Assembly: GCA_034670305.1 (NCBI GenBank)
Contig: JAXMNT010000005.1
Span: 1-64,000 of the forward strand
Direction: 5' to 3'
Source of the DNA: Deltaproteobacteria bacterium
GTDB taxonomy: Bacteria > Myxococcota_A > Polyangia > Polyangiales > Houyiibacteriaceae
DNA length: 64,000 bases
Shown here: positions 1,147 through 13,807 of the stretch, in pieces
Layout of the letters: every line of letters starts with the position of its first letter
How positions within the stretch are numbered: the stretch's first letter is position 1
The notes under the pieces: generated by a model
Databases searched by the model: none
The model's input: only the letters and a program-made list of their open reading frames with translations
What the model was told of the DNA's origin: nothing
Translations under genes and position numbers: made by a program

Positions 1147-2186
1147 AGGATCTCCACTTCGACGCCCGCGCCCGGCTTGGCGATCAGGGTCGACTGCACA
1201 CCGTCGGTGCGTTTGAGGGCGCGCTGTACCTTCTTCGCGTCGTCCGCGTGGCACAGCACCTTCACGTGCGGGCCGGCGTCCATGGTGGCCCACGCGCTCA
1301 CGCCGCGATCGCGGAGCGACTCGACGGTGCGCAGTGCCGCGATGGTCGGCGGCTGCCAGTAGAGGATGCTCGGCGAGGCGCTCATCGCGCAGGCGTGGAA
1401 CGCGAAGGTGCTCTGCTCCATCGCGGCACCGAGGGTGTCGAGGTCCTTCTTCTTGAGCGCGCGTTTGATCTTCCGGCAGAGCGCCGGCGCGCGTTCGACC
1501 CACGCGTCGTAGAGCGGCGAGGTCTTGCGCGAACGCTCCATGCCTTCGGTGGAGCCGACCTTCTTCGGGCCCTTGGCGGTGACCGCGACGACCAGGCGCA
1601 CGTCCCAGTGGTGTTCGTCGAAGAGCGGCTTGCCGGCCAGGCGATCGTCGCCCGGTTTGCCGGCCGGCAGCTCCGCGAACCCGCCGAAGAACGAGCGCGC
1701 GGCGGACGCACTGGCCCATCGTGCGAGCGCGCTCTGCTTGCGGACCGACCAGCGGAGATCGGCGGCGGTGGTCGCGGCGGCGGCGAGTGCGGCGAACCCG
1801 GAGGCGCTCGACGCGAGGCCGGCGGCGGTGGGGAAGTGGTTCACAGAACGCACATGGGCGAAGCGGGTCTCGCTGCTCTGCTCTCGGATCCGATCGAGCA
1901 TGCGCACCACACGCGCGCGTTCGGCTTTCGACGCGCGGCGTCCATCGAGCGACACGCGGTCGGCCCTCAAGGTCGCGTCGTACGACACCTCGGTCTCGGT
2001 GAGCAGTCCGTCGAGGGTAAGCGAGATGCTGGGGACCGCGGGCAGGTTCAGCGCGAGGTCGTTCTTGCCCCAGTACTTGGCGAGCGCGATGTTCGCGCGG
2101 GCCCGGGCGACGACGCGGTTGGACGTGAGGCGCGTCGGGGCGTGCGCGCCCATGGCGGGCGGCCGGCGGGTCGTGTGCTGGGTCAT
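1143..2186 (-). CDS. mvaD: Diphosphomevalonate decarboxylase
   Basis: NIALAKYWGK, NHFPTAAGLASSASGFAAL, SASAARS and TMDAGPHVK motifs. Confidence 0.95.
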   Translation of the reverse strand: MTQHTTRRPPAMGAHAPTRLTSNRVVARARANIALAKYWGKNDLALNLPAVPSISLTLDGLLTETEVSYDATLRADRVSLDGRRASKAERARVVRMLDRIREQSSETRFAHVRSVNHFPTAAGLASSASGFAALAAAATTAADLRWSVRKQSALARWASASAARSFFGGFAELPAGKPGDDRLAGKPLFDEHHWDVRLVVAVTAKGPKKVGSTEGMERSRKTSPLYDAWVERAPALCRKIKRALKKKDLDTLGAAMEQSTFAFHACAMSASPSILYWQPPTIAALRTVESLRDRGVSAWATMDAGPHVKVLCHADDAKKVQRALKRTDGVQSTLIAKPGAGVEVEIL

Positions 2187-3208
2187 GGGGTGTTCTTCTC
2201 GTGCTCGGTGGCGCGGGCGTCGGCTCGGCTACCGACTTCGGCCACGAGCGTCATCGAGGCGTGTTCCGCGAGCTTGGGCTCGAGGGCGCGCGCCTCTTCG
2301 AGCGAAGCGCACAGCGCGATCATACAACCCCCGCCACCCGCGCCGGTCAACTTCGCCCCGAGCGCCCCGCCGGCGCGTGCGACGCGGCAGAGGGTCTCGA
2401 GTTTCTCCGTAGAGATCATCATCGCGCTCAGCAGCGCCTGGTTCATGTCCATGAGCTGGCCGAGCGCGCGCAGGTCGTCCGCTTCGACCGCCAGCCGCGC
2501 GTTGTTCACGAGCACGCCGATGCCTTCGAAGATCTGCTGCATGCGCTCGGGCTCTTTGTCGTGCTGGCGCGCGACGTGGTCGACGATCTCTTTGGTGCTG
2601 GACGACTCCCCGCTGTGGGCCACGACAAGCGCGAAAGGCTGCTGCACCTTCACCGGCCGCAGGGGTTCACCGCGCTTGAACACCGCGACGCCGCCGCACG
2701 CCGACATCGCGTTGTCGACGCCGGAGGGGTTGCCATGGAAGACGCGCTCCCAGCGCATGGAGTACGCGCCGCGTTCTTCGTTGGTGCGCTCGACGCCGTA
2801 GTGCGCGTCGAGCGCGCCCACGACCGCGACACCGATCGCGGCGGAGCACCCGAGGCCCGCGCCGCCGGGCAGATCGACCTCGGCGCGGATGCACACCGGC
2901 GCCGGCCGATCGAGGTAGCCCTCGAGCGCCGCCGCAAAGGCGCGGGCGAGCGACGCTTCTCCGCGGGCTTCACTGCGATTCCCAAAGCCAGCGCCACTGG
3001 CTTCGAGGAGCTCCGGGCCGCGCACGTCGACGTCCCAGGGCGAGACGACGAGCCGGTCTTCGGTCGACGGTTCCGCAACCGCGGTGACGCCGCGGGTGAG
3101 ACCCGCCGCCAGGGCCGGGTGGCCATACACGACGCTGTGTTCGCCGAGGAGGATGACCTTGCCGCCACCGAACGCGGCTGCGCTTCCCGAAGACACCACC
3201 GGACTCAC
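2183..3208 (-). CDS. mvk: Mevalonate kinase
   Basis: GKVILLGEHSVVYGHPALA, PGGAGLGCSAA, HGNPSGVD and KLTGAGGGG motifs. GTG start overlaps the upstream stop. Confidence 0.9.
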   Translation of the reverse strand: MSPVVSSGSAAAFGGGKVILLGEHSVVYGHPALAAGLTRGVTAVAEPSTEDRLVVSPWDVDVRGPELLEASGAGFGNRSEARGEASLARAFAAALEGYLDRPAPVCIRAEVDLPGGAGLGCSAAIGVAVVGALDAHYGVERTNEERGAYSMRWERVFHGNPSGVDNAMSACGGVAVFKRGEPLRPVKVQQPFALVVAHSGESSSTKEIVDHVARQHDKEPERMQQIFEGIGVLVNNARLAVEADDLRALGQLMDMNQALLSAMMISTEKLETLCRVARAGGALGAKLTGAGGGGCMIALCASLEEARALEPKLAEHASMTLVAEVGSRADARATEHEKNTP

Positions 3209-4239
3209 ACCCGGCGGATGGCCAAGCGCTCGGCCACGTAGCGGAGCACGTCGACGCCCGGGCCATCGAAGGGCGAGTTGTCGAGCGCCTGGTGGGCGTC
3301 GCCGAGCAACTTCTCGAGCCGGGTCTCGACCTTCGTGCGCGCGCCGCAGTCGACGATGAGTTTCGCGGCGGCGGCGACCTGCGCTTCGGTCGGGGACTCG
3401 CTCGCGAACAGATCCGTCAGCGCGCCGCGCTCGGCCTCCGGCACCATCTGCTCCGTCTCGGACACCAGACATGTGCGCTTGCGGTTGCGCAGATCGTTGC
3501 CGGGTTTGCCGGTCTCGTCTTGGTCGCCGAAGGTGCCGATGAGATCGTCGGCGAGCTGGAACGCTTCGCCGAGCGGATCGCCGTAGGCGAGCATCGCGTC
3601 GAGCTGTGCCTGATTCGCCCCACCGAGGAGCGCGCCGAGAAGCAACGGGCCCCGCACGGTGTAGCTGCCGGTCTTGAGATCGTGCATGCGCGAGACGTCG
3701 GCGTTCGCGGTCAGGTCGAGGTGCTGTCCGAAGAACACTTCTTTCTGGATGACGACGAAGCGGTCGTAGGCCGCGCGCTGGGTGGCCGCGGGGTATGGTG
3801 CTTCGAAGAGCAGCTCCCAGGCGTACGCGCTCGCGAGGTCGCCCGCGAGGATGGCGAGCGCATTCGCGAGGTGGGTCTCGTGGGCGGCGCGGTACTGCGC
3901 GTGCACGGCCGGACCACCCCGGCGCTCGTCGTCCTGGTCCATCCAGTCGTCGTGGATGAGCAGGTACGACTGCAAGAGTTCGAGCGCGGCACCGACGCAG
4001 GTCGTCGCGTCGTCGTCCGGATCACTCGCGACACAACGATACGCCGCGTCGACCACGATGGGCCGGAGCCGCTTGCCGCCCCGCAGGGTCAAATCGCGGA
4101 TGCCTTCGACGAGCTCGATCGAGTCGGGCGAGGTCGCGCGGCCTTCGACGAGCTTGGCCTCGAGGTACTGCTCCAGTTTGGCGTCGACTCGGGTTCGAAC
4201 CCCCTGCATCCACGCGGCGACGTCTCGTGTGTCGTTCAT
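3205..4239 (-). CDS. Polyprenyl diphosphate synthase (FPP/GGPP synthase family)
   Basis: GGKRLRP, IHDDWMDQDDERRG (FARM), KTGSYT and FQLADDLIG (SARM variant). Start taken at ATG 4239 (MNDTRD). Confidence 0.9.
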   Translation of the reverse strand: MNDTRDVAAWMQGVRTRVDAKLEQYLEAKLVEGRATSPDSIELVEGIRDLTLRGGKRLRPIVVDAAYRCVASDPDDDATTCVGAALELLQSYLLIHDDWMDQDDERRGGPAVHAQYRAAHETHLANALAILAGDLASAYAWELLFEAPYPAATQRAAYDRFVVIQKEVFFGQHLDLTANADVSRMHDLKTGSYTVRGPLLLGALLGGANQAQLDAMLAYGDPLGEAFQLADDLIGTFGDQDETGKPGNDLRNRKRTCLVSETEQMVPEAERGALTDLFASESPTEAQVAAAAKLIVDCGARTKVETRLEKLLGDAHQALDNSPFDGPGVDVLRYVAERLAIRRV

Positions 4240-4371
4240 CTCTGCGGGCGTGTAGGCGTTTGGTGTTCGACGGGCAAGCGCCGCGGGTCCGGCCGGTGCC
4301 CACGTAGGGCCAAAGGTCCGCAAGCGCGGGCCACCAGGGGATCATTTTGGCTGCGCGCAGTATGGTCACCC

Positions 4372-6309
4372 ATGACCGATTGGACACCAGGTTCCCGCGG
4401 AGGCTTCGGCGGCCAAGAAGCCCCAGGGGGCGCGGCCCGCACCGTCGCCCAGGAACCAGCCCGCCCGCCGAGCATCGAGACCATTCCTTTCAACGCCCTT
4501 CCGGCGGTCAGCCGGGAGGCGCTGACGAGGGCCAAGCCGCTCTTGAAGGGGCCGGCCAAGGGCGGAGGCAAGACGTTCTTTGCGTGTCTGGGCGTGCTCG
4601 CCGGCGTCGGCGTGCTGAGCATGGCGATGAAGTTCGAGTACGGGCGACCGTACCGGCCGCAGGCCGAAGCAGAGAGCCTCCTGGTGTACGCCGGCGCGCT
4701 CTTGGTGATGGCGTTCTGCGGGCTGTGGTTGGCGCGCCGGTTCATGGCGTCGAAGAGCCCGTTCAAAGGCGGGGTCTACCTCTTCGGCACCGGTTTGGTG
4801 GTCTCCGACGGGCCGAACATCACTGTGTACCCGCTCTCGCTCGTGACCAAGATCAACACGGTGCACCAGCACATCAACGGCGCCTACGCGCACACGACGA
4901 TCTACTTCATCTTTCCGGGGCGGAGCGAGGCGTTCAAGATCCACCGCAACGACAATGTCGGCGCCCGGATGGACGCGTCGAGGTTGCAGTTGCGCGACGC
5001 GCTGATGGCCGGCGACATGGCGACCGCGCGGGTGATCGATCCGCTCATCGACGGGATCATCGACCCGACCTGGGGCGACGTCGAAGCGATGCAGGCGAAG
5101 TTCGGCGGGGAGCAGGGACTCTCGGCGGCGTCGGTGCCGAAGTGGCTCGGCATGGCGCCGATCGCGGGCATCTCGGTGGCGATCGCGCTGCTCGCGGTGC
5201 CGATGTGGATGGTCCGCAACTCGATGAGCGACAGCGCCGCTTTCGACCGGGCGCTGGCGTCGGCGAACGACACCGGCGACGTGTATCAATTGGAGTCGTA
5301 CGCGCGCAACGGCGGCGATCGGGCGGACGAGGTTCTGTCGTTGCACCTTCCGCGCGCGCTCTTGACGAAGGCCCAGGAGACCGGGGAGGTCACCCCGCTG
5401 CGCGAGTTCGTCCAGCGGTTTCCGGAGACGCCGTTCGCGGGTGAAGCGCGCGCGACCATCCACCAACGCTTCGAGGAGGTGCGGGCCGAGTTCCTGGCGC
5501 AGGCCAACCCCGAGGGCGGGGTGCGCGCGTTCATGGATGGGCTGCTCGCGTGGCTCGAAGCGAACGACTCGCCGCCGGTGCGCGTTCGCTATGCGCCGCC
5601 TTCGGTGGAAACTTTGACGGGCATCGACGAGACGCTGCGCCGGCGTTCCCGCAACGTCATCCCAGTGTCGCCGCACTTCACTCAGGAGCGGGCGCAGTCT
5701 CGCGAGACGAGTGTGACGCGCGCCCTCTCGAGCGGCTTCGCGACCGTGTTTCCGGCCGACGTGATGCGGCTCGAGCACGGCAACGACATCGCGGTGTCGC
5801 AGGCGTCCGACGTGCCGACCATCGACGTCGAGTATGCGATTCAGCCCTCCGGTGCGATCTACGTCTCCGAACGCGACGGACGGCAGTTCGTCGGCATCCA
5901 CATCGACTTCCACGTCTCGATGCACATCCCCGGCGCCGCGGTGACCCACGCCTTCCAGGTCGCGGTCGAACCGCCCGAACGGTTCTCGGTCTCGTACCAA
6001 ACCTTCGGCGGCGTCGGCAACATGAGCGAAGGCGCCGTCTACTCGACCATGGCCGAGCGCGCCTTCGACAAACTCGCGGTGGATCTCGGCTTGGCGTTCT
6101 TCGCCCCGGGCTCCGCGGCCTACCTCGCGGCCGAACAACGGTCCCAACGCAGCGCGGAGGGCACCCGCCGACCCTCGACCGGCCTCGGCGGCACGCCAGG
6201 CTTCGGCGGCGGCCTCGACCCGGCGCTGCTCGACGGCCTCGGCGCCGGCGGCGACGCCGAGACCCAGCGCCGCATGCAGGAGCTGCGCGACCTACTCAAC
6301 ATGCACTGA
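4372..6309 (+). CDS. Hypothetical membrane protein (~645 aa) with three hydrophobic segments and a large C-terminal extracytoplasmic domain
   Basis: GC3-rich reading frame from ATG 4372. Hydrophobic stretches FFACLGVLAGVGVL, LLVYAGALLVMAFCGLW and IAGISVAIALLAVPMW. Confidence 0.75.
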   Translation: MTDWTPGSRGGFGGQEAPGGAARTVAQEPARPPSIETIPFNALPAVSREALTRAKPLLKGPAKGGGKTFFACLGVLAGVGVLSMAMKFEYGRPYRPQAEAESLLVYAGALLVMAFCGLWLARRFMASKSPFKGGVYLFGTGLVVSDGPNITVYPLSLVTKINTVHQHINGAYAHTTIYFIFPGRSEAFKIHRNDNVGARMDASRLQLRDALMAGDMATARVIDPLIDGIIDPTWGDVEAMQAKFGGEQGLSAASVPKWLGMAPIAGISVAIALLAVPMWMVRNSMSDSAAFDRALASANDTGDVYQLESYARNGGDRADEVLSLHLPRALLTKAQETGEVTPLREFVQRFPETPFAGEARATIHQRFEEVRAEFLAQANPEGGVRAFMDGLLAWLEANDSPPVRVRYAPPSVETLTGIDETLRRRSRNVIPVSPHFTQERAQSRETSVTRALSSGFATVFPADVMRLEHGNDIAVSQASDVPTIDVEYAIQPSGAIYVSERDGRQFVGIHIDFHVSMHIPGAAVTHAFQVAVEPPERFSVSYQTFGGVGNMSEGAVYSTMAERAFDKLAVDLGLAFFAPGSAAYLAAEQRSQRSAEGTRRPSTGLGGTPGFGGGLDPALLDGLGAGGDAETQRRMQELRDLLNMH

Positions 6310-6325
6310 CGTTCGCGAGGGGTAG

Positions 6326-9300
6326 CTACATGGCGCCGTTGTCGAGCATGTGGCTCATCATCTCTTCGGCGGTGTCTGCGTTCTCGTTGGGCTCCGGCGG
6401 GTCGTGTTCAAACGATGCCCCTCCAGTATCCATGTGGCCCGTCGCGGCATCCACAATCGAGTCGGCGAGCGCCTCCATCGAGTTGTGGAACATGCCGATC
6501 GGGGTCATCGCATAGAGACCTCGACCGGCGGTCGCGAGTCGTTGCCCCTCCGGTGCGTTCACGACGTCATGGAGCACGAGCACGCCTCCCGCGACTCCAA
6601 GAACCCTCCCCGCGCCCGATGCCGTGGGAGGGGGGTTCTGGATGCGCGGAACTGCTCGACGCCTGGTGTGTCTCAGCAGTTTGGCCTCTTCTTTGCCGTT
6701 CTCGAGGTAGATTCCGGTCACGCGAGGGTTCGTGGTCAGCCTCCAACGGCGGCCGGCCTCGTGGTTTCGGGCCCTGAGCATTTCAGCCGGAGTGCGCTGG
6801 TTGTGGAAGGTGACATCGCTCCTGCCCTGCAAGTACGGGGCGCACTGCGCGGTGCAAGGCGGGTGGAGCACATCCGTCGCAATGGTGATCTTGCCACTGC
6901 TGGCTCCCCGAAGGTTGTCGTGTGCGATCACAACCGCCCGTTCGGCATGCGTACCAGCGATCCCCAAACGACTGCCGGGTGAGGACGCATAGATCACCCG
7001 CTGGTTTGGCAGGGTCTTCTGCACTGCGTCTCTCAAGGCACTGTACCCGCTGCCCGAACGTCCAATGATGACGGTTCCGTCGGCCTGTATGCCCACCGCG
7101 ATGGTGTCCCGCAGGCCGGACGCCTTCTTGATTGCGTCCGCCCACTGCTGCGCCAGGGCTCCGTGCGCCGGGTTCAGCCCGATCGGGTCTCGGGTTTGTA
7201 GGACGTTGCCGCCGACGTAGTGGTAGCTGTTGAGGACTTCGCCGCCGGCGAGCGCGTGGATCTCGGCGGGGTCGGGGGTCGCCCAGCGGCCGAGTCGAGG
7301 GATCAGGTAGCGCTCGCCGAAGTAGACGAGGCCGACCTCTTCGTCGGCTTCTTTCGTCGTGAAACCGGCCGGCTCGGGAGAGACGGGATCGTCGGCGACG
7401 AGCAACGTCTCGCGCGCGCCGTTCGGGTGGAACGTGCCGACCTGCACGAGCTCGCCCTCGAGCAGATCGACCACCGCCGTGGTGCTCTGCACGAGGTCGG
7501 TCAACGCCATCGTCACGCGGTGGCGCGGCAGCTCTCCGCTCTCGGGCGGCGGCTCCTGCCAGACGATGCGCGCGCCGGCGAGCAGGTACTGCGCCTCTGC
7601 GCGGTCGGCGCCCTCCCCGCTCGTGTACACGCCGGCTTCGCGCCGCACGCCGCGCAGCACGAAGTCCCCGGCCACGACATCGAGCGCGATGCGTTCGTCC
7701 GTGCCGGCCGCCACCGGCAGGGTCTGCTTGACGACACGGCGGTTCTGGCCGTCGTAGCGGTAGCGCTGACGCGCCGCGAGCGTCCACCCGGCGCCTGCGC
7801 CCCCGTCGTATCGGCGCGCTTCGTCGAGGCGGTCGAGTTCGTCCCAGTCGTACTCGTAGCGCTGCGCTTCGGCGCACGCGCAACGGGCCAGGTCGTCCGC
7901 CGCGCACACGCCGCCAGCGTCCGCGCACCGTGCGTGCACCTCGTAGGCGAGCACGTTGCCCCCGTCCCCGTACGCCACGTCGAGCCAGCCGCCTCGGTTG
8001 GCCGGGTCGTCGCCGCCAAGATCGTGGGCGGAGGCAAGCGCGGAGGGGCGGCCTTGCGCGCCGTTGACGAGGGTGCCGAGGCTGCGCTCGTAGAACCCCG
8101 CGCTCGGGTCGTCGCCCGTCCACTCGGTCATGTTCGCGAGGAAGTCGTAGGCGTACGCGAACGTGTGGGCGCGGCCTGCGGCGTCTCCGCCGAGACGCGG
8201 GGCGGGCACGGTGGACATGGGATCCACCGGTCGTTGACGGGCCCGCTCGTCGCGCCAGTCCTGCGGCGCATCGAGCACGTCCGCGGGGTCGGGCCCGAAG
8301 CGGTGTTCCACGCCCACCACTCGGTAAAGGGAGTCGTGACGCGCGCGGGTGCTCCGCGGTCTGTGGCCCGCCGGCCAGGACTCGGGATCGCGCAGGTCGC
8401 GGGTCTCCACCAGGTTGTCCGCGTCGTCGAACACGTAGCGGGTGTCGACGAGCTGGGCGACCTCGGGCAGCAGGCCACCCACGACGGGCACGAGACGGGT
8501 GGTGGTGGCGCGCAGTGGGCGGCGGCGGGCGTCGCGCTCGGTCACAGTCTCGAAGCGGTCGTCGCCGTAGGTCCCGCGCAGGAGCGCGCCGTCGAAGTCG
8601 TACTGCGCGCTCGAGAGCACATCGACGAGCGGCAGGTCGTCGACCAGCACCCGCGCCAGGGCGGGCAGCCCGCGTGCGTCGTACTCGAGCTCGCCGCCGA
8701 CCGACGCGCCCTCGAACGGATCCGTGGGCAGCGTGGTCTTGACCACGCGCCCGGCGTGGTCGTGCACCGTGGTCGCCAAGAACGGTTGCGCCGGCCACCA
8801 GGCTTCGGCCTGCGGCGCCCCGTCGAGCCGCTCCACGGTGCCGTCCGGACGCGTGTCGAGGGCGGGGGCATCGCCGACCTGCCGCACTTGCCGCGCACCC
8901 CACACGACCTGCCCGCGGAGGTCGTGTCCCGACTGGCTGCGCTGGGCGCGGTCCGCCGTCGCGACGTGTCGGCCCAGTTCGGACGCACTCGGTGGGAGCC
9001 CGTCCCACCCGGCCCAGGCCGGACGGGCATCGTACCAGTGCTGCGTGTCGACGGGCGTGCCGGCGGGCACCGCGCCATCCGCCCAGGCCTCGCCTTCGAG
9101 CGGCATCGGAGCGACCGGCGAGGGCGCCGACTCGGCGCAGCCCACGTACTGTTCGGCGCGGAGACGACCCACGCGGTCGTAGAAGAAGTTCTGTCCGCAC
9201 CCGCGCGGATCGCGCACCGCGAGGAGCTGGCCGAGGTCGTCGTAGAGGTAGCGCCAGCGGCCCTCGGTGGGCGTCGCGCCGGGTCGATCGGTGTCGCGGT

Positions 9301-12300
9301 CGACGGTGGCGAGGCGGCGGCCAATCGAATCGAAGACGAACTCCCGCGCCACCTGTCGATCGAGCACCACCGGCGCGCCGGGTGCGTCGCTGGCGACCTC
9401 CGCGCGCTCCAGCCGAAGGAGGGCGCCGTCCGCGCGGAACTGCTTGCGCAGCACGAAGAACTGCATCGCGGCGCCCGGACCGGACCGGTACCGCTGGACC
9501 GACTCGACCGCGCGCCCGTGGCCGTCGCTGCGCTCCGTCTCGCACGTCCCGGCGAACACCGGACCGTCGATGTCATCGACCACGAGCCCGTCCACGAAGT
9601 CGCGGAAACCATCGTCGTTGGCGTCGCACGTGGTCACCTCGAGCGGGCGGTAGTGCGCTTCGGTCACCGCGGTGTCGACGACGTTCACCGTCCGGCGCAC
9701 CCGCGAGAACGCGTCGCGCTCGGTCCACGCCCCGACCCGCGTCACCGGGGTCAGGGCTTGCTCGATCGTCGGGTCGGGGTCGTCCAAGAAGCCGCCCTGG
9801 AACGCGCCGGTCGCCGCACCGCGGGCGTCGAGCGCGGTGAGGCCGGATTGGACCCACGGGTGAAGCGCGTCGCCATTGGTGAGCATGGCGCGGCCACGCC
9901 CGAGACCATCGACATAGCGGCGCGAGACGATCGCGTCGTCGCCGTGGCAGTTCGTCGAAGTCCGGGTCGTGACGACCGTCATCGGACGGGCGCGCGAGTC
10001 GTCTGGCACATCGTACGTGGTCTCGCTGCTGGCCACACCGGCAGGGCATCCTTCGACGGGCGGCAGCACCAGCCCGCTCGCGCGACCGAGCGCGTCGTAA
10101 CGGGTCTCGGTGGTCGCCCCTGTGGCGTCGGTGTAGGCGCGCGGCACGCCGAGGCCCGCGTCCCACGTCGCCACTACGTCGAGGAACGTCGCGCTTCCCG
10201 TGTAGAGCCGTTCGAGCACGGGAAGCGCCGCGTAGTCCGTGTCCCAGACGAGCACGCTCAGGCGCCCACAGTCATCGAGGCCCGCGGCGAGATCGCCGCC
10301 GGCGCACATCACGAGCGGGTTCCCGAAGTCGTCGTACGTGGTGCTCGAGACCTGCGCCTCGTCCCGCTGCACGAAGCCGAGCGCGTGATCGTAGCCGTCG
10401 AACTCGAGGGCGACCGGCGCGTGCACGAGGGTGGTCGTGCGGATCACCCGGCCGCGTTCATCGTAGGTCTGGAGCGTCTCCCCGAAACGTGCGCCGCTCC
10501 CGTCCTCGACGAACTGGCTGACGGTCGCATGCAGCCAACCCGTCGGGTCTTCGAGGCGGGCGTGCACCGTCTGCGAGTGAATCGTGGGGTCGATCGGGCC
10601 CGCGTCGGCGAGCGTGACCTGGCCGTGCTGCGTTTGGCGCACGACCTGGCCGAGGTCGGTGACGGTTTCGGTGGTCTCTCGGGTGCGAACGGCGCCCGCG
10701 CCGCGGATCGGGATCGTCTCGGTCGCGTGCGTCCGCGCCTCTGCGCCACCGGTGCCTTCAACCCGGACCGCGACCGCGTCCAAGTGATCGTCCAGCGCGG
10801 TGAAGGGCTCGGTCTCGTAGGCGAGCGTCCCGGACTCGAACGGGTACGCGAAGGCGATCGGCCGACCGTCTAGACCATGGGCAATGGTGCGGAGCGCGAT
10901 CTGGGTGAACGACGTGCTCAGGGTGGTGCCCTCGTCGTCCCGCGTCTCGACCAGCCACGGGGTCGCCGCGATCGCATCGAAGGGGTTCGCCGCGAGCCGG
11001 TTGCCCTCGAGCGAAGCTGGGCGCGCACCGCGGTGGAAACGCGTCTCGGTGATGGCGGTGGGGTGACTTGCGTCCCCGACCGCGATCTCCTCGGCCCGCC
11101 CGAACCCGCGGAAGGCGCGCTCGGTGCCGTCGAAGCGGGGCGCGTGGTAGCGGTATTCGGTCCGGCCGCACCAGCCGGCGGGTCCAAGCACATCGAGCCG
11201 GTCACACACCTCGGTGGCCCGCACGACCGTGGGCAGCGCCGGCGAGTTGCCCTCTCGGCCGCACCCTCCGGCGCAGGCCTCGGATCCTTCGCGCACGTCC
11301 GCGGCGAGGTCCTCGAGGTAGTCGATCGCACTCGACTCGTATTCGATGCGGGCCTCGCCGCCGGTGGGCAACTCGATCCGCGTCAGCAGACGCGGACGCA
11401 CCCCGCCGAGCAGGTCGACCCAGCGCCAGTCTCCGGAGGCGGCGTAGAGCACGTCGATCGTGCCGCTCGCGTCGAGGTCCACCAGTCGCACGTCCGCGCC
11501 CAAGGCGAAGGGCGCATCGATGCGTTCCCCGGCGGCGAAGAAGTCGCCACCACGGTTGAACCAGACCTCGATCGTCGCGTCCCGGATCTCGAGGAGGTCC
11601 GCGGTGCCGTCGTGGTCGACGTCGGCGAAGGACAGCCCGGGGCGGTCGGCACGCACCCGCGGTGGGACCGCCGCCATCTCGACCCCACCGGTTGCGAACC
11701 CGTCTTCGCACCCGTCGCCGAACGTGCCGTCGCCGTTGCCCGGGAAGTACACGATCCGTCCCAGGTCCATCCAGACCAGGTCCTGCAGTCCGTCCCCGTC
11801 GAGATCCGCGAGCCGAGCTCCTTCGGAGAACCGGACGCGCTCACCTCCCGCATGGGCGGCGCAGTGGGTCTCGGGTTCGTCCACCGCTTCCCAGCCCCGC
11901 GCCCCCTCGGCGGCGTGGCCGAAGCGACCGTCCCCGCCGGCTACGTGGCCGAGGTTGAACCACACGCGGTGGTGATCGCCCGCGGTCTCGAGCCAGTCGA
12001 CGAAACCGTCCGCGTCGAGGTCCACCGCACGGAGATCCGGACTGCCGAGGTCGAGGTCGGGGTCGTCGAGCGGATGGGCCTCCGCGTATGCCCATTGCCA
12101 GCGTTCGGAGGTTGGCGAGGTGCGCACCCGCTCGCGCTGTGGGGTGTATCGACCGCGCCGCTCGGAGTACCGCGCCCAACGGACCAGATCGCTGCGCCCG
12201 TCGCCGTCGGCGTCCATGGGACGCACATCTCGGTCGGCGAGTGAGACGGCCCCTCGATGGCCAAGTGGCAAGGCCGTTGGGGTGGCAGGCGAGAACGCGC

Positions 12301-13762
12301 CGGCCATGCCGGGCCGTCCCTCTGGGAAGCCGTTGAAGTGCACATCGATGCGTCCGTCCAACGTCCGGATGACGTCGGTCAGTCCGTCCCCGTTGACGTC
12401 GAAGAGATCCGTCGTCGCCTCGCGCACACCAACCGGCGGGCTGCTCGGCGAGTGGTGCGTGATCGGGTTCAACGAACCCAAGCCGCTGTAGACAAAGCGG
12501 GTCGCGGGCAAGCGCGGGCGGACCCCGTCGACCTCGCGACCCTCCATCCAGATCTCTGCGAGCAGCGAGTGGTGGCCTGGCGCGTAGCGGAGCGGGTAGC
12601 GCCGAACGACGTCGTCCTCGCCCCCAGCCACGCTCACCACATCGATGCGCCGAAGCCGGCGGGCCAGCGTGGTCGAGAACCCACGCGCCCGAGACACGCG
12701 GACGTCCTCGCGTGCTTCGTAGTGGAACTCGACGCGGCGTCCCCACGTCGACAAGGGCGCCGCGCACGCGCGGGTCTCCGCCACGCTTGCCCGGGCGCAG
12801 TCGCTCGGGCTGTCGTAGTGAACGCTGCGCACGTACGCGAGCCCGCCGTGCGATTCGTAGGTGAAGTGCACGACGTTGCCGTTCGCGTCCGCGCTCCGGA
12901 CGAGTTTCCAGGTGTGCACGCGCGCGCCGGACCGAACCAGCGCGCCGGTGTCGCGTGGGGTCGGGCCGTCGGTCACCACCCCGTAGTCGAGCCGGCTCCC
13001 GTCGGCGCTTTGCACGACCCAGTGTCGCCAGTCGGGGCTCCGGTAGACTCTTCGGAAACCGCCTTCGATGCGGGTCCGGTAGGCCTGGTAGTCGGCGAGC
13101 TCGGCGGGCGGGGCCCCGCCTCGGTAGGTCTCGGGCAACGTGGTGGGATCGACGGGGACGAGCTCCGCACCGTCGAGCGCGAGCCGGTCCTCGAGTGCCT
13201 GCCAGCGCGGCCTGTCGACGTAGCGCGGGACACCGCGATCCCCCATGCGCGCGACCGACGACACCCCGAGGCTCCAACCGAACCCGAGTGGGCCGTTGCC
13301 CGAGCTCGTGGAGTACCCAAGGGTGATGCTGGGCTGGTGCCCCGCGCGTCCGGGCGGGAGGACGATCGGCACCGAGTAGCCTCCCGCGCCGCTCGAGAGG
13401 ACGGCGCGGAAACGTTCGCCCATGCCCTGCGCCGATCCCTCTCCGTCGGGCAGCGTGAGGCGCTGTGGGGTGGCGGCGCTCCGCTCTTCCCCATCGGGCA
13501 AAGAGACTTCGTGCCCCTCGACCGCCGGATCCGCGAGCATCTGCTCGGCGAAACGTTCGGCTCCGTGAACCGCCGGGCCGAGAGCCCGATTCGACTCTGG
13601 GGCATGCGTCAGGTTGGCCGAGACGTCCTCCCGGAGCTCCGTGCGGTCCTGGGCCGCGACCCCCGCGCTGGCGGCGAGCACCAGCGCGAGCGTGAGCGTG
13701 CGCTGCTGTGTGAACCGGGGATGCCGGGGACGGCGCGCCGTGGGTGCGATCGGGGGAACCAT
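6326..13762 (-). CDS. TcB-TcC-like fusion toxin: signal peptide + SpvB/TcB N-domain + FG-GAP repeats + YD/RHS repeats + RHS core + C-terminal deaminase-like cargo
   Basis: AAGGAG RBS and signal-like TLTLALVLAASAGVAA. TcB/SpvB-type LPDGEGSAQGMGERF...YSVPIVLPPGRAG...GNGPLGFGWSLG. Six DxxxxGxxD repeats, midN-like EYRY...FDGTERAFRGFG, YD repeats, and core GFTTKEADEEVGLVYFGERY...GRWATPDP...DPIGL. Confidence 0.9.
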   Translation of the reverse strand: MVPPIAPTARRPRHPRFTQQRTLTLALVLAASAGVAAQDRTELREDVSANLTHAPESNRALGPAVHGAERFAEQMLADPAVEGHEVSLPDGEERSAATPQRLTLPDGEGSAQGMGERFRAVLSSGAGGYSVPIVLPPGRAGHQPSITLGYSTSSGNGPLGFGWSLGVSSVARMGDRGVPRYVDRPRWQALEDRLALDGAELVPVDPTTLPETYRGGAPPAELADYQAYRTRIEGGFRRVYRSPDWRHWVVQSADGSRLDYGVVTDGPTPRDTGALVRSGARVHTWKLVRSADANGNVVHFTYESHGGLAYVRSVHYDSPSDCARASVAETRACAAPLSTWGRRVEFHYEAREDVRVSRARGFSTTLARRLRRIDVVSVAGGEDDVVRRYPLRYAPGHHSLLAEIWMEGREVDGVRPRLPATRFVYSGLGSLNPITHHSPSSPPVGVREATTDLFDVNGDGLTDVIRTLDGRIDVHFNGFPEGRPGMAGAFSPATPTALPLGHRGAVSLADRDVRPMDADGDGRSDLVRWARYSERRGRYTPQRERVRTSPTSERWQWAYAEAHPLDDPDLDLGSPDLRAVDLDADGFVDWLETAGDHHRVWFNLGHVAGGDGRFGHAAEGARGWEAVDEPETHCAAHAGGERVRFSEGARLADLDGDGLQDLVWMDLGRIVYFPGNGDGTFGDGCEDGFATGGVEMAAVPPRVRADRPGLSFADVDHDGTADLLEIRDATIEVWFNRGGDFFAAGERIDAPFALGADVRLVDLDASGTIDVLYAASGDWRWVDLLGGVRPRLLTRIELPTGGEARIEYESSAIDYLEDLAADVREGSEACAGGCGREGNSPALPTVVRATEVCDRLDVLGPAGWCGRTEYRYHAPRFDGTERAFRGFGRAEEIAVGDASHPTAITETRFHRGARPASLEGNRLAANPFDAIAATPWLVETRDDEGTTLSTSFTQIALRTIAHGLDGRPIAFAYPFESGTLAYETEPFTALDDHLDAVAVRVEGTGGAEARTHATETIPIRGAGAVRTRETTETVTDLGQVVRQTQHGQVTLADAGPIDPTIHSQTVHARLEDPTGWLHATVSQFVEDGSGARFGETLQTYDERGRVIRTTTLVHAPVALEFDGYDHALGFVQRDEAQVSSTTYDDFGNPLVMCAGGDLAAGLDDCGRLSVLVWDTDYAALPVLERLYTGSATFLDVVATWDAGLGVPRAYTDATGATTETRYDALGRASGLVLPPVEGCPAGVASSETTYDVPDDSRARPMTVVTTRTSTNCHGDDAIVSRRYVDGLGRGRAMLTNGDALHPWVQSGLTALDARGAATGAFQGGFLDDPDPTIEQALTPVTRVGAWTERDAFSRVRRTVNVVDTAVTEAHYRPLEVTTCDANDDGFRDFVDGLVVDDIDGPVFAGTCETERSDGHGRAVESVQRYRSGPGAAMQFFVLRKQFRADGALLRLERAEVASDAPGAPVVLDRQVAREFVFDSIGRRLATVDRDTDRPGATPTEGRWRYLYDDLGQLLAVRDPRGCGQNFFYDRVGRLRAEQYVGCAESAPSPVAPMPLEGEAWADGAVPAGTPVDTQHWYDARPAWAGWDGLPPSASELGRHVATADRAQRSQSGHDLRGQVVWGARQVRQVGDAPALDTRPDGTVERLDGAPQAEAWWPAQPFLATTVHDHAGRVVKTTLPTDPFEGASVGGELEYDARGLPALARVLVDDLPLVDVLSSAQYDFDGALLRGTYGDDRFETVTERDARRRPLRATTTRLVPVVGGLLPEVAQLVDTRYVFDDADNLVETRDLRDPESWPAGHRPRSTRARHDSLYRVVGVEHRFGPDPADVLDAPQDWRDERARQRPVDPMSTVPAPRLGGDAAGRAHTFAYAYDFLANMTEWTGDDPSAGFYERSLGTLVNGAQGRPSALASAHDLGGDDPANRGGWLDVAYGDGGNVLAYEVHARCADAGGVCAADDLARCACAEAQRYEYDWDELDRLDEARRYDGGAGAGWTLAARQRYRYDGQNRRVVKQTLPVAAGTDERIALDVVAGDFVLRGVRREAGVYTSGEGADRAEAQYLLAGARIVWQEPPPESGELPRHRVTMALTDLVQSTTAVVDLLEGELVQVGTFHPNGARETLLVADDPVSPEPAGFTTKEADEEVGLVYFGERYLIPRLGRWATPDPAEIHALAGGEVLNSYHYVGGNVLQTRDPIGLNPAHGALAQQWADAIKKASGLRDTIAVGIQADGTVIIGRSGSGYSALRDAVQKTLPNQRVIYASSPGSRLGIAGTHAERAVVIAHDNLRGASSGKITIATDVLHPPCTAQCAPYLQGRSDVTFHNQRTPAEMLRARNHEAGRRWRLTTNPRVTGIYLENGKEEAKLLRHTRRRAVPRIQNPPPTASGAGRVLGVAGGVLVLHDVVNAPEGQRLATAGRGLYAMTPIGMFHNSMEALADSIVDAATGHMDTGGASFEHDPPEPNENADTAEEMMSHMLDNGAM

Positions 13763-13807
13763 GAGCCTCTCCTTGTCGGTGTGAATGCGTGTACGGGAGG
13801 AGAGGAC

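What the first reader, a model, noticed from the sequence alone, without database searches (positions are those of the whole stretch)
6800..7174. RHS cargo is a putative zinc-dependent nucleotide/nucleic-acid deaminase
Seen: directly after the RHS autoproteolysis motif (PDP...DPIGL) is a ~125-aa domain containing HAE-x27-PCTAQC (HAE at 6941-6949). Codon usage visibly shifts to more A/T-ending codons here. Known: HxE-x(n)-PCx(2-4)C is the deaminase-superfamily Zn signature, found in polymorphic toxins such as DddA. Inference: a recently exchanged, possibly uncharacterised deaminase warhead, also of base-editing interest.
Basis: partly seen in the sequence, partly recalled or inferred. Interest (0 to 1): 0.8.

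Follow-up and report, generated by a model that had tools for sequence, protein, structure and literature searches.

The report
Orphan deaminase-like cargo of RHS toxin
A giant shell-forming bacterial toxin protein ends in a 282-residue cargo with no known relatives that carries the zinc-binding signature of base-deaminating enzymes, so it is probably a new deaminase toxin, though its fold could not be confirmed.

Summary
A 2478-aa minus-strand gene (6326-13762) encodes signal peptide + SpvB + FG-GAP + TcdB-mid + RHS + Rhs core. It ends in PDP...DPIGL, followed by a 282-aa C-terminal cargo (CT, 6329-7174) carrying HAE-x27-PCTAQC (HAE at 6941-6949).

These are the cargo's only two cysteines. 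In this genome the strict motif occurs 3 times, and the other two are Pfam-confirmed deaminases. Shuffled proteomes give 0-1. GC3 falls from 0.87 to 0.76 at the junction.

The deaminase reading is plausible but not proven:
- Protein-language-model neighbours are all toxin deaminases (scores 0.82-0.90).
- Nine Pfam deaminase models, NCBIfam, PDB sequences and a TadA profile all miss it.
- Two single-sequence AlphaFold models fail beyond residue 64.
- An exhaustive search of 1.84 billion proteins finds only itself.
- A Walker-A-like stretch lacking the lysine is a local rival signal.

Context found here:
- The protein most resembles TcdB2-TccC3 cocoons.
- The cargo (29.9 kDa, pI 8.65) fits Tc cargo rules.
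- No immunity gene follows it.
- A conserved, unannotated ~2050-aa lipoprotein gene precedes this kind of gene in 14 of 16 relatives' loci.
- A second study's metagenome holds a near-identical cargo with an in-frame loop deletion.
- A third shows another cargo joined at the same junction.

Verdict: likely a new, sequence-orphan deaminase variant (about 0.6).

The parts
6326..13762 (-). Gene for the 2478-aa RHS protein (P0001), a natural TcB-TcC-like fusion; stop codon at 6326-6328
   Evidence: ORF list and translation. Pfam SpvB, FG-GAP_3, TcdB_toxin_midN and RHS_repeat. NCBIfam Rhs_assc_core and YD_repeat_2x. Best PDB sequence matches are TcdB2-TccC3 fusions, TcdB1 and YenB. GC3 phase is continuous.
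13652..13762 (-). Probable Sec signal peptide (residues 1-37: Arg-rich start, hydrophobic TLTLALVLAASAGVAA, then QD)
   Evidence: Read from the translation; inference, no predictor was run. It fits the 'signal peptide + SpvB + beta-propeller' class in PMC3482391 (passages).
12848..13393 (-). SpvB domain (residues 124-305)
   Evidence: PF03534, E 2e-23.
11033..11497 (-). TcdB middle/N-terminal domain (residues 756-910)
   Evidence: PF12256, E 5.2e-14.
7175..7381 (-). Rhs-associated core with the autoproteolysis motif (PDP at 7268-7276, DPIGL at 7175-7189)
   Evidence: TIGR03696, 50.2 bits, residues 2128-2196, profile 13-76 of 76. Sequence.
6329..7174 (-). C-terminal cargo (CT; hypervariable region): 282 aa, 29.9 kDa, pI 8.65
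   Evidence: No homologue found. GC3 is 0.762 against 0.874 in the core.
6680..7051 (-). Proposed deaminase-fold core (CT 42-165; pI 10.0). Proposed elements: a1 44-54, b1 60-65, b2 69-75, a2 76-88, b3 96-103, a3 106-116, b4 120-125, a4 129-141, b5 153-159
   Evidence: The topology is my inference from the sequence and from the secondary structure of the AlphaFold models, which is confident only up to residue 64. Language-model neighbours are toxin deaminases.
6941..6949 (-). H76-A77-E78: proposed Zn ligand (His) and catalytic Glu
   Evidence: No listed difference in these codons in the variant from run X5.
6842..6859 (-). P106-C107-T-A-Q-C111: proposed two Cys Zn ligands; the only Cys residues of the cargo
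   Evidence: No listed difference in these codons in run X5. The neighbouring codon 112 is changed, A to S.
7007..7096 (-). Walker-A-like stretch (CT 27-56; GRSGSGYS, with Tyr where the Walker lysine should be)
   Evidence: PF13555 AAA_29 at 22.7-23.2 bits, below the cut-off of 27. hhalign against 10 ABC ATPases of the same genome aligns only these 30 residues (probability 39%).
6329..6679 (-). Tail of the cargo (CT 166-282; pI 5.35): basic RHTRRR, Pro-rich linker, Gly/Val-rich hydrophobic stretch 187-205, acidic end
   Evidence: No Pfam family at E<=10 for CT 146-282. The function is not explained; filling the shell to the needed cargo size is an inference from PMC6868009.
13808..19951 (-). 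Upstream partner gene (P0003). The ORF runs to 20197; the likely start is M83, which gives a 2047-aa lipoprotein (MRVANRVSWMMCLMALGAC)
   Evidence: The database form is 2047 aa. A paralogue lies before the contig-27 RHS gene. A relative of it lies beside 14 of 16 RHS genes in related genomes. No Pfam or PDB match.
4372..6309 (+). Convergent neighbour (P0002; start uncertain; hydrophobic segments; no Pfam family). It ends 16 bases from the RHS stop, so no same-strand gene follows the toxin
   Evidence: GC3 frame plot, translation, Pfam. The 60-aa minus-strand ORF 6120-6302 is Arg/Ser/Pro-rich and shares third codon positions with P0002; I take it to be an antisense artefact.

Best explanation
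The gene encodes a secreted, natural TcB-TcC-type fusion: signal peptide, SpvB, beta-propeller, TcdB-mid and an RHS shell.

Proposed mechanism:
1. The aspartyl-protease core cuts after DPIGL (L2196).
2. This leaves a 282-aa, 29.9-kDa, basic cargo inside the shell.
3. The first two thirds of the cargo (about CT 42-165) fold, once released in a target cell, into a zinc-dependent deaminase-fold enzyme. H76, C107 and C111 hold the Zn-bound water and E78 shuttles the proton.
4. The substrate is most likely a base in DNA or RNA. If the proposed helix between strands 4 and 5 is real, the domain belongs to the TadA/APOBEC-like 'helix-4' division.
5. The 117-aa acidic tail is most simply filler or an accessory that brings the cargo to the roughly 30 kDa such shells carry.
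6. Delivery probably uses the conserved ~2050-aa lipoprotein encoded just upstream, in the role TcA plays for Tc toxins.

What is shown: the architecture, the motif and its rarity, the cargo boundaries, the absence of relatives and of an adjacent immunity gene, the synteny with the partner gene, and the existence of a near-identical variant elsewhere.

What is inferred: cleavage, encapsulation, the fold, Zn binding, the chemistry, the substrate, the partner's role and the target organism.
For: Architecture:
- The closest solved sequences are TcdB2-TccC3 fusions (E 4e-27 to 1e-25), TcdB1 and YenB.

Motif:
- HAE-x27-PCx3C uses the only two Cys of the cargo.
- The strict motif has 3 hits in 2.1 million residues of this genome. 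The 2 others are TadA and a dCMP deaminase. Shuffles give 0, 1, 0, 1, 0.

Language-model neighbours:
- Whole cargo: top 0.82, with Deam_C, SsdA_C, Toxin-deaminase and YwqJ clusters.
- CT 1-165: 0.90 for an unnamed cluster, then 0.89 MafB19-deam, 0.89 MsddA-like, 0.86 SCP1201-like.
- Of the ten best hits with a family, 9 (whole cargo) and 10 (CT 1-165) share the family or clan of the best hit.

Deaminase cargoes in this setting:
- They occur in this RHS lineage. 1 of 14 homologous cargoes (L042) has HAE...CPNC and weak PF00383 and PF14441 matches (E 0.0025 and 0.0074).
- They are known in TcC proteins (a YwqJ-like deaminase in TccC6; PMC7861908 passages).
- They are known in TcdB/TcaC-type toxins of myxobacteria (the sce3516-like family with HAE; PMC3482391 passages).

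Cargo size and charge:
- At 29.9 kDa and pI 8.65 the cargo meets the reported Tc rules of at least ~20 kDa and pI of at least ~8 (PMC6868009 passages).
- 12 of 14 homologous cargoes are 241-294 aa.

Independent variant (run X5, another study):
- It has an in-frame 9-base deletion in the predicted a2-b3 loop (CT 91-93).
- None of the listed differences falls in the HAE or PCTAQC codons.

Partner gene:
- Synteny holds in 14 of 16 relatives' loci and in 2 of 3 own loci.
Against: No deaminase profile sees the cargo:
- hmmscan against all of Pfam at E<=10 and NCBIfam at E<=1 list none.
- Nine Pfam deaminase HMMs run on the genome at E<=10 hit other places or nothing: PF14424, PF24120, PF24241, PF14428, PF24174, PF00383, PF14437, PF14431 and PF14441.
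- hhalign against 30 TadA sequences gives a probability of 0.1%.
- phmmer against PDB sequences finds nothing.

Structure:
- AlphaFold2 without an alignment is confident only for residues 1-64. At pLDDT below 50 it draws the HAE segment as strands rather than the helix a deaminase needs.
- Foldseek finds nothing at E<=0.001. VIA gives a best Z of 7.7 to generic folds.

Other weaknesses:
- The language-model scores are in the range the tool calls 'a lead only'. By the tool's own figures, a third of shuffled proteins reach a first hit of 0.8.
- Cx3C spacing is unusual for bacterial deaminases. I recall it only from the APOBEC consensus PCx2-4C; no call supports this.
- CT 27-56 matches Walker A regions as well as many real ATPases of this genome do (rank 11 of 101).
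- No immunity gene follows, unlike two relatives.
- P0003 has no detectable likeness to TcA.
Confidence: 0.6

Rival explanations
1. The cargo is a toxin or effector with a different, so far undescribed fold and chemistry. The HAE...PCx3C pattern is either a coincidence or a metal site of another kind.
For: No profile or structure method recognises a deaminase. 9 of 14 homologous cargoes also have no Pfam family at E<=0.1. 65.5% of 171 TcC cargo clusters had no recognisable domain in PMC7861908 (passage), so unknown cargoes are the rule. The language-model scores are below the level the tool treats as evidence.
Against: The strict motif is expected about 0.4 times per whole proteome by chance, which is about 5e-5 for a 282-residue stretch. 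The other two hits in this genome are true deaminases. Both of the cargo's Cys residues sit in the motif. The independently proposed family (deaminase) is the one the language model returns out of all Pfam families.
Confidence: 0.2
2. The cargo derives from a P-loop NTPase (ABC/SMC/RecF-like head or a small kinase) and acts through nucleotide binding. The deaminase-like motif is incidental.
For: AAA_29 (PF13555) matches CT 28-58 with E 8e-5 and 22.7 bits. In the genome-wide run this stretch scores 23.2 bits, rank 11 of 101 matches. hhalign against 10 ABC ATPases of the genome gives P = 3e-4 for CT 27-56. This is also the only part AlphaFold models with confidence, as strand-strand-loop-helix.
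Against: The Walker lysine is a tyrosine (GRSGSGYS), and that lysine is essential in P-loop NTPases (established knowledge). The match is below Pfam's cut-off of 27 bits. Only 30 residues align, with no signature motif, Walker B or H-loop alignment. ABC_tran is not reported and SMC_N reaches only E 0.13. None of the listed language-model neighbours is a P-loop family.
Confidence: 0.05
3. The cargo is a decaying or inactive remnant: a cassette that lost its immunity gene and is no longer a working toxin.
For: There is no same-strand gene after the stop, and a convergent gene ends 16 bases away. At least two relatives keep an overlapping downstream ORF: L042 with 194 aa and own contig 3 with 203 aa and low GC3. 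No distant homologues exist.
Against: The 282-codon frame is intact with a coding GC3 phase to the end. All motif residues are present. A variant from another study differs by an in-frame 9-base deletion and by 4 synonymous against 6 non-synonymous codon changes among those listed, which is not the pattern of free decay, although the numbers are too small for a test. Tc loci normally lack immunity genes (PMC7861908 passage).
Confidence: 0.1

Closest known systems
TcB-TcC cocoon of Tc (ABC) toxins, e.g. the Photorhabdus TcdB2-TccC3 fusion; natural B-C fusions are noted in PMC7861908
   Same: SpvB N-terminus, beta-propeller/TcdB-mid and RHS shell, with a core ending in a D-x-x-G-L cleavage site. 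The total size matches: 2478 aa against 2410-2439 aa for the full-length engineered fusion chains. The cargo is about 30 kDa and basic. There is no immunity gene.
   Different: It has its own signal peptide. The neighbouring large gene (P0003) shows no likeness to TcA in Pfam or PDB sequences. The host is an environmental relative of Sandaracinaceae/'Deltaproteobacteria' MAGs (record titles), not an insect or human pathogen. Some sister loci do carry candidate immunity genes.
TccC6 of Photorhabdus laumondii TT01 (TcC with a YwqJ-like deaminase cargo; PMC7861908 passage)
   Same: A deaminase-type cargo at the end of a TcC/RHS shell.
   Different: The YwqJ-deaminase model PF14431 does not match this cargo at E<=10. 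The sequence is an orphan.
DddA (BaDTF1 / SCP1.201-like, PF14428), a double-stranded-DNA cytosine deaminase toxin
   Same: A C-terminal toxin domain with HAE and a PC...C zinc site. An SCP1201-like cluster is among the language-model neighbours at 0.86.
   Different: PF14428 does not match. DddA is delivered by a type VI system and comes with an immunity protein (PMC7901873 passages). Here delivery is Tc-like, no immunity gene is present, and the spacing is Cx3C.
SsdA (BaDTF2, DYW-like; PF24120 SsdA_C), a single-stranded-DNA cytosine deaminase toxin
   Same: A toxin deaminase. SsdA_C clusters are among the neighbours of the whole cargo at 0.80-0.81.
   Different: PF24120 does not match. The family's SGW motif (PMC7901873 passage) is absent from the cargo sequence. 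[quoted passage not shown]
sce3516-like toxin deaminases of Sorangium and others (PMC3482391 passage)
   Same: An HAE signature, a myxobacterial host, and the TcdB/TcaC route listed among their delivery modes.
   Different: That family is placed in the C-terminal-hairpin division and is paired with SUKH-type immunity proteins. I had no member sequence or model of it, so membership was not tested.
Wolbachia WD0512-like giant toxins (divergent helix-4 deaminase followed by a second C-terminal domain, no immunity gene; PMC3482391 passage)
   Same: A very divergent deaminase followed by a further C-terminal region, with no immunity gene. The authors read this as being directed at a eukaryotic host.
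   Different: Those proteins have CxE rather than HxE, and a latrotoxin-type C-terminal domain. The tail here matches no family.

Membership tests
Deaminase superfamily (cytidine-deaminase-like fold) | [HC]xE at the start of one helix and PCx(2-4)C at the start of the next, about 20-35 residues apart | tested here: met
   HAE-x27-PCTAQC at CT 76-111. 3 strict hits in the genome, and the other 2 are true deaminases. Shuffles give 0-1.
Deaminase superfamily (cytidine-deaminase-like fold) | Significant match to a curated deaminase sequence profile | tested here: not met
   hmmscan Pfam at E<=10 and NCBIfam at E<=1 list none. Nine Pfam deaminase HMMs on the genome at E<=10 do not hit the cargo. 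hhalign against 30 TadA sequences gives a probability of 0.1%.
Deaminase superfamily (cytidine-deaminase-like fold) | Three-layer alpha/beta/alpha fold with five strands that brings His and the two Cys to one Zn site | tested here: inconclusive
   Two AlphaFold2 single-sequence models have pLDDT below 50 from residue 65 on. Foldseek PDB finds nothing at E<=0.001. VIA wide covers only residues 1-73, with best Z 7.7 to generic folds.
Deaminase superfamily (cytidine-deaminase-like fold) | Zinc-dependent hydrolytic deamination that needs the Glu | not testable with these tools
   This needs expression and assay.
BaDTF1 / DddA-like (PF14428) | Match to the family model | tested here: not met
   0 matches at E<=10 in the genome.
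BaDTF2 / SsdA (PF24120) | Match to the family model; SGW motif in the insertion between strand 2 and helix 2 | tested here: not met
   The only match lies elsewhere (contig 29, E 1.15). There is no SGW in the cargo sequence. The motif is taken from PMC7901873.
Tc-toxin B-C cocoon | SpvB N-terminal domain, TcdB middle domain with beta-propeller, RHS repeats, and Rhs core with the cleavage motif | tested here: met
   PF03534, PF12256, PF13517, PF05593 and TIGR03696. The best PDB sequences are TcdB2-TccC3, TcdB1 and YenB.
Tc-toxin B-C cocoon | Cargo of about 20-35 kDa with a positive net charge | tested here: met
   29.9 kDa, pI 8.65. The rule comes from PMC6868009. Note that PMC7861908 reports 36.5% of natural cargoes below pH 7.
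Tc-toxin B-C cocoon | A TcA homologue encoded beside it | tested here: not met
   The adjacent 2129-aa ORF has no Pfam family at E<=0.01 and no PDB sequence relative. It is nevertheless a conserved neighbour.
Classical Rhs toxin-immunity module | A small immunity gene directly downstream on the same strand | tested here: not met
   A convergent gene ends 16 bases from the stop. The only same-strand ORF is a 60-aa Arg/Ser/Pro-rich antisense frame. Such ORFs are present in relatives L042 and own contig 3.
P-loop NTPase | Walker A GxxxxGK[ST] with the lysine | tested here: not met
   The sequence is GRSGSGYS, with Tyr in place of Lys. AAA_29 scores 22.7-23.2 bits, below the cut-off of 27. Only 30 residues align to ABC ATPases.

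The most novel reading that the evidence does not exclude
The cargo founds a new family of the deaminase superfamily. It would be a helix-4 (TadA/APOBEC-like) type enzyme with a Cx3C zinc knuckle, undetectable by all current profiles. It would be delivered without any immunity protein by a myxobacterial two-gene machine: a Tc-like B-C shell plus a conserved ~2050-aa lipoprotein that replaces TcA and has no known relatives. The target would be non-kin cells, whether prey bacteria or eukaryotic grazers. Both the enzyme (a compact new editing activity) and the A-like partner (a new translocator) would then be new.
Probability: 0.3. Interest if true: 0.75.

Novelty: new variant of a known kind. 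Interest (0 to 1): 0.5.

Why it matters
Toxin deaminases (DddA, SsdA, BaDTF3) became base-editing and footprinting tools (abstracts listed). Each new, distant family has brought a new substrate or sequence preference. A 13-18 kDa deaminase-like domain that no profile detects would show that motif-plus-context reading can reach enzymes that homology searches miss.

Two further points matter for toxin biology:
- A cargo without an immunity gene in a family where sister loci have candidates. This bears on whether Tc-like shells protect the producer by themselves.
- A conserved, unannotated giant lipoprotein paired with B-C fusions in 14 of 16 related loci. It is a candidate for a non-TcA delivery component.

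Set against this, orphan cargoes are common, and deaminase cargoes in RHS and TcC proteins are already known.

Tried and rejected
Homologue searches that found nothing beyond the protein itself:
- The search of protein representatives, 1.84 billion proteins.
- The search for homologous proteins 'longer', which covered only 495-2000 aa, and 'near' for CT 1-170 at E<=10.
- Own genome and 60 relatives, where only chance-level hits of 21 bits or less appeared.
- The search for related loci in genome contigs and in metagenome contigs.
- PDB sequences.
- Earlier-findings look-ups.

Other steps that led nowhere:
- The PF14437 search over 301 genomes of the phylum returned housekeeping TadA in 300 of them rather than toxin domains. 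I used 30 of these as a TadA profile.
- hhalign against TadA, local and global, gave nothing. A MAFFT --add run aligned the N-terminal helix and hairpin of the cargo with those of TadA but not the HAE. I do not count this as evidence.
- BLASTP of the cargo against the deaminase-like cargo of L042 showed no similarity (best E 0.16, in the tails).
- AlphaFold2 on the whole cargo and on CT 1-176 gave low confidence. Foldseek PDB and VIA wide gave no informative match.
- My reading of 'SGAG...VLVLHD' (CT 186-203) and 'GTHAE-RAVVIAH...ITIATD' as an ABC signature plus Walker B was rejected. The spacing is wrong and hhalign does not extend beyond 30 residues.
- The 60-aa ORF 6120-6302 as an immunity gene was rejected.
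- No RNA holder was listed for the stretch.
- Parts of 6508-6600 and 6992-7035 have no cover in run X5.

Not run:
- Complex prediction, because both candidate chains are orphans that could not even be folded.
- Profiles of the toxin-deaminase families for hhalign. With a single-sequence query this adds little to the HMM scans already done.


Full report
**1. What is there**

The finding lies on the minus strand. ORF 6326..13762 encodes a 2478-aa protein, P0001. From the N-terminus it contains:
- An Arg-rich, then hydrophobic start that reads as a Sec signal peptide. This is my reading; no predictor was run.
- SpvB (residues 124-305, E 2e-23), FG-GAP-like repeats, TcdB_toxin_midN (756-910) and RHS repeats.
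- The Rhs-associated core (2128-2196), matched to the last position of its profile.

The core ends ...TPDPAEIH...NVLQTRDPIGL. The remaining 282 residues (window 6329-7174) are the C-terminal cargo, which I call CT and number from N2197.

The closest solved sequences are the engineered TcdB2-TccC3 fusions (2410-2439 aa for the full-length chains), TcdB1 and YenB. The protein is therefore a natural B-C fusion of the Tc-toxin type. It also fits the 'signal peptide + SpvB + beta-propeller' TcdB/TcaC class of polymorphic toxins described in PMC3482391 (passages read).

**2. The observation**

H76-A-E78 sits at 6941-6949. After 27 residues comes P106-C107-T-A-Q-C111 at 6842-6859. The cargo has 12 His but only two Cys, and both are in the motif.

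To ask whether this is more than chance, I scanned every likely-coding frame of the whole genome: 4608 frames and 2,117,205 residues.
- The strict pattern H[AS]E-x20-35-PCx2-4C occurs three times: here, in TadA, and in a 159-aa protein that Pfam confirms as a dCMP/cytidine deaminase (64 bits).
- Five residue-shuffled proteomes gave 0, 1, 0, 1, 0. For one 282-residue stretch that is an expectation of about 5e-5.
- The looser [HC]xE form is not specific. It gave 14 hits, mostly Cys-rich repeats, against 4-12 in shuffles.

The codon shift is also real.
- GC3 is 0.874 in the core and 0.762 in the cargo.
- No 282-codon window of the core falls below 0.812.
- The best change point is codon 2224, 28 codons after the junction (z = 5.7).

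The frame, with its coding GC3 phase, runs on to the stop at 6326-6328.

**3. Is it a deaminase?**

*For:*
- The motif statistics above.
- Protein-language-model neighbours. For the whole cargo the best clusters are Deam_C, SsdA_C, Toxin-deaminase and YwqJ-deaminase (0.82-0.77). For CT 1-165 they are an unnamed cluster (0.90), MafB19-deam (0.89), MsddA-like (0.89), SCP1201-like (0.86) and Toxin-deaminase (0.85). Of the ten best hits with a family, 9 (whole cargo) and 10 (CT 1-165) share the family or clan of the best hit. The tool warns that scores under 0.9 are leads only. What carries weight is that the family it returns is the one the motif had already suggested.
- The sequence can be threaded on the canonical order without insertions: a1 44-54, b1 60-65, b2 69-75, a2 starting at HAE, b3 96-103, a3 starting at PC, b4 120-125, a4 129-141, b5 153-159. 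This would be the 'helix-4' division, and it is inference only.

*Against:*
- No profile method sees it. hmmscan of all Pfam at E<=10 and NCBIfam at E<=1 list no deaminase.
- Nine deaminase HMMs run over the genome at E<=10 find TadA, a RibD-like frame and the dCMP deaminase, but never the cargo.
- hhalign against a 30-sequence TadA alignment gives a probability of 0.1%. PDB sequences give nothing.
With no homologues, AlphaFold2 ran on a single sequence. It was confident only for residues 1-64 (mean pLDDT 44.6 for the cargo and 52.5 for CT 1-176). In the low-confidence part it draws HAE inside strands.
- Foldseek against the PDB found nothing at E<=0.001. VIA-align over 48,161 chains gave a best Z of 7.7 to OsmC-like and other generic alpha/beta units, covering residues 1-73 only.

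**4. A local rival signal**

CT 27-56 (VGIQADGTVIIGRSGSGYSALRDAVQKTLP) resembles the strand/P-loop/helix unit of ABC/SMC ATPases.
- AAA_29 scores 22.7 bits (E 8e-5), below the cut-off of 27.
- In a genome-wide run this stretch ranks 11th of 101 matches.
- hhalign against ten ABC ATPases of the same genome aligns these 30 residues (probability 39%, P 3e-4) and nothing else.
- The Walker lysine is a tyrosine, so nucleotide binding of the usual kind is unlikely.

I read this as a convergent or vestigial local feature. It could serve as helix a1 of the deaminase core. I keep a P-loop origin as a minor rival.

**5. An orphan, but not a singleton**

Nothing related was found in any of these searches:
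- 1.84 billion representative proteins at E<=0.001.
- The word-indexed collection.
- The genome itself and 60 relatives.
- 185,579 species' genomes and the JGI metagenomes, searched by back-translated patterns.

Near-identical DNA does occur elsewhere. Four runs of one study hold the whole stretch, and these may be its source. Two runs of other studies hold parts. Laid on 6200-7500, they show the following.

*Run X5 (another study).* It has short contigs over most of the cargo:

| Span | Differences | Note |
|---|---|---|
| 6330-6508 | 1 | |
| 6609-6762 | 12 | |
| 6757-6960 | 9, plus a 9-base deletion | |
| 7046-7204 | 4 | crosses the core/cargo junction |

- The deletion is in frame and removes three residues of RGASSGK (CT 91-93), the predicted loop between a2 and b3.
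- None of the listed differences falls in the HAE or PCTAQC codons. Three of the nine differences of that contig are not listed.
- By codon, the listed changes are 4 synonymous and 6 non-synonymous: K17Q, A112S, S119A, E163K, K165E and M272T. This is too few for a test. Contig depths are 2.7-4.2, so single differences may be errors.

*Run X6 (a marine metagenome).*
- One contig matches 7176-7500 with 14 differences. It then continues for at least 101 letters unlike the cargo, breaking at the DPIGL junction.
- Another contig matches the end of the convergent gene (6200-6310, 1 difference) and then diverges.

Together these show cassette replacement at the junction in close relatives. Whether the two X6 contigs come from one locus is not shown.

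**6. Family context**

The last 500 residues of the core have homologues (46-53% identity for the full-length ones) in 18 of 40 related genomes. There are four further copies in this genome. I extracted 14 cargoes from 11 relatives' loci and the 4 own paralogues; one locus, L046, gave no cleavage motif and was dropped.
- Twelve are 241-294 aa long. The others are 160 and 500 aa.
- Pfam at E<=0.1 names little: a Peptidase_M91 effector domain (L043), zincin-like matches (L044), a HINT domain (L039), three weak below-cut-off matches to unrelated families (L047), one faint match (NeA_P2, E 0.07) in an own paralogue, and one weak deaminase. That deaminase is L042 (HAE...CPNC; PF00383 E 0.0025, PF14441 E 0.0074).
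- Nine have no family at all.
- L042's cargo shows no similarity to ours.
- The four own paralogous cargoes have still lower GC3 (0.60-0.66) than ours. The composition therefore argues for cassette origin, but not for a particularly recent one.

The uniform size of about 30 kDa, together with this cargo's 29.9 kDa and pI 8.65, fits published Tc cargo rules: about 20 kDa or more, and pI of about 8 or more (PMC6868009 passages). PMC7861908 reports many natural exceptions to the charge rule. This offers the simplest reading of the 117-aa acidic tail (pI 5.35, no family). A 13-18 kDa enzyme alone would be under the size threshold. This is inference.

**7. Immunity and partner**

No gene follows the toxin on its strand.
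- A convergent gene (P0002, about 4372-6309; hydrophobic segments; no Pfam) ends 16 bases from the stop.
- The only same-strand ORF (6120-6302) is an Arg/Ser/Pro-rich antisense frame.
- Two sister loci do have an ORF overlapping the RHS stop: 194 aa in L042 and 203 aa with low GC3 on own contig 3.

The lineage therefore includes immunity-type modules, and this locus stands apart. Tc loci in general lack immunity genes (PMC7861908 passage). So do the Wolbachia toxins that combine a divergent deaminase with a further C-terminal domain, which their authors read as host-directed (PMC3482391 passage).

Directly upstream, with its stop at 13808-13810 and 45 bases before the RHS start, lies a 2129-aa ORF, P0003.
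- Its database form is 2047 aa and starts at M83 with a lipobox-like MRVANRVSWMMCLMALGAC.
- It has no Pfam family and no PDB relative.
- Its 8 related clusters in the protein collection are all 'hypothetical'.
- It is nevertheless a faithful neighbour. A paralogue precedes the contig-27 RHS gene.
- Among the 16 relatives' RHS matches that lie in frames of at least 2400 aa, 14 have a P0003-like match within about 10 kb on the same contig. Twelve are upstream on the same strand, one is downstream and one is divergent.
- In this genome it is 2 of 3.

I infer that P0003 plays the part TcA plays for Tc toxins. Nothing here shows that.

**8. Comparison with what is known, and verdict**

RHS and TcC proteins with deaminase cargoes are known:
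- DddA, SsdA and BaDTF3 (PMC7901873 passages; abstracts in the listing).
- The YwqJ-like cargo of TccC6.
- sce3516-like domains in myxobacteria.

The kind is therefore not new. What differs here:
- A sequence that no profile recognises.
- Cx3C spacing. I recall the APOBEC consensus PCx2-4C from memory; no call supports this.
- A long extra tail.
- No immunity gene.
- A Tc-like shell with its own signal peptide and a non-TcA partner.

The relatives' record titles (Sandaracinaceae and 'Deltaproteobacteria' MAGs) place the host among myxobacteria-like organisms.

My odds:

| Reading | Odds |
|---|---|
| Deaminase-fold enzyme inside a Tc-like shell | about 0.6 |
| Toxin of another, unknown fold | 0.2 |
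| Inactive remnant | 0.1 |
| P-loop derivative | 0.05 |

The literature searches were not aimed at the P0003 family, so I make no claim about whether it is in print. I did not open any supplementary files of the papers cited. They may list more cargo families.

Noticed in passing
window 13808-20197 (minus); also G000 contig 27 about 66.3-73.0 kb: A cysteine-rich lipoprotein of about 2050 aa with no Pfam or PDB relatives sits directly before the B-C-type RHS gene. A relative of it lies within about 10 kb of 14 of 16 full-length RHS homologues in related genomes and of 2 of 3 in this genome. It is a candidate non-TcA 'A' component.
   Followed up: partly
window 13808-13810: The upstream gene and the RHS gene are in the same reading frame, separated by a single stop codon. 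The stop-to-stop frames 6326-13807 and 13808-20218 abut. The RHS protein has its own ATG and signal peptide 45 bases further on, so I read them as two genes. Read-through was not examined.
   Followed up: no
G000 contig 3, 206.6-214.2 kb (L051): A full-length RHS paralogue is followed by a 203-aa low-GC3 ORF overlapping its stop (an immunity candidate). About 4 kb further on there is a 548-aa frame holding only the end of an RHS core plus a different 294-aa cargo. This is an orphan cargo cassette, as in classical Rhs arrays.
   Followed up: partly
L042 (G008 contig 177), 122-1500 minus: A related genome's RHS homologue carries a different, weakly Pfam-recognised deaminase-like cargo (HAE...CPNC at its very end). 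A 194-aa ORF with no Pfam family overlaps its stop.
   Followed up: partly
L043 and L044: Other cargoes of the same RHS lineage match Peptidase_M91 (an effector-type zinc protease, E 1.5e-9) and zincin-like models. This hints that at least some members act on proteins rather than nucleic acids.
   Followed up: no
window 4372-6309 (plus): The convergent neighbour P0002 (about 645 aa) has hydrophobic segments, a Gly-rich C-terminus and no Pfam family. In run X6 its last 111 bases recur with 1 difference, next to different downstream sequence.
   Followed up: no
window 1143-4323 (minus): Genes for a GHMP-kinase-family protein and a polyprenyl synthetase (isoprenoid metabolism) lie a few kb from the toxin locus. 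They are ordinary housekeeping context.
   Followed up: no
window 22269-24344 (minus): A Ser/Thr protein kinase gene (Pkinase, E 3e-35), typical of myxobacteria-like genomes.
   Followed up: no
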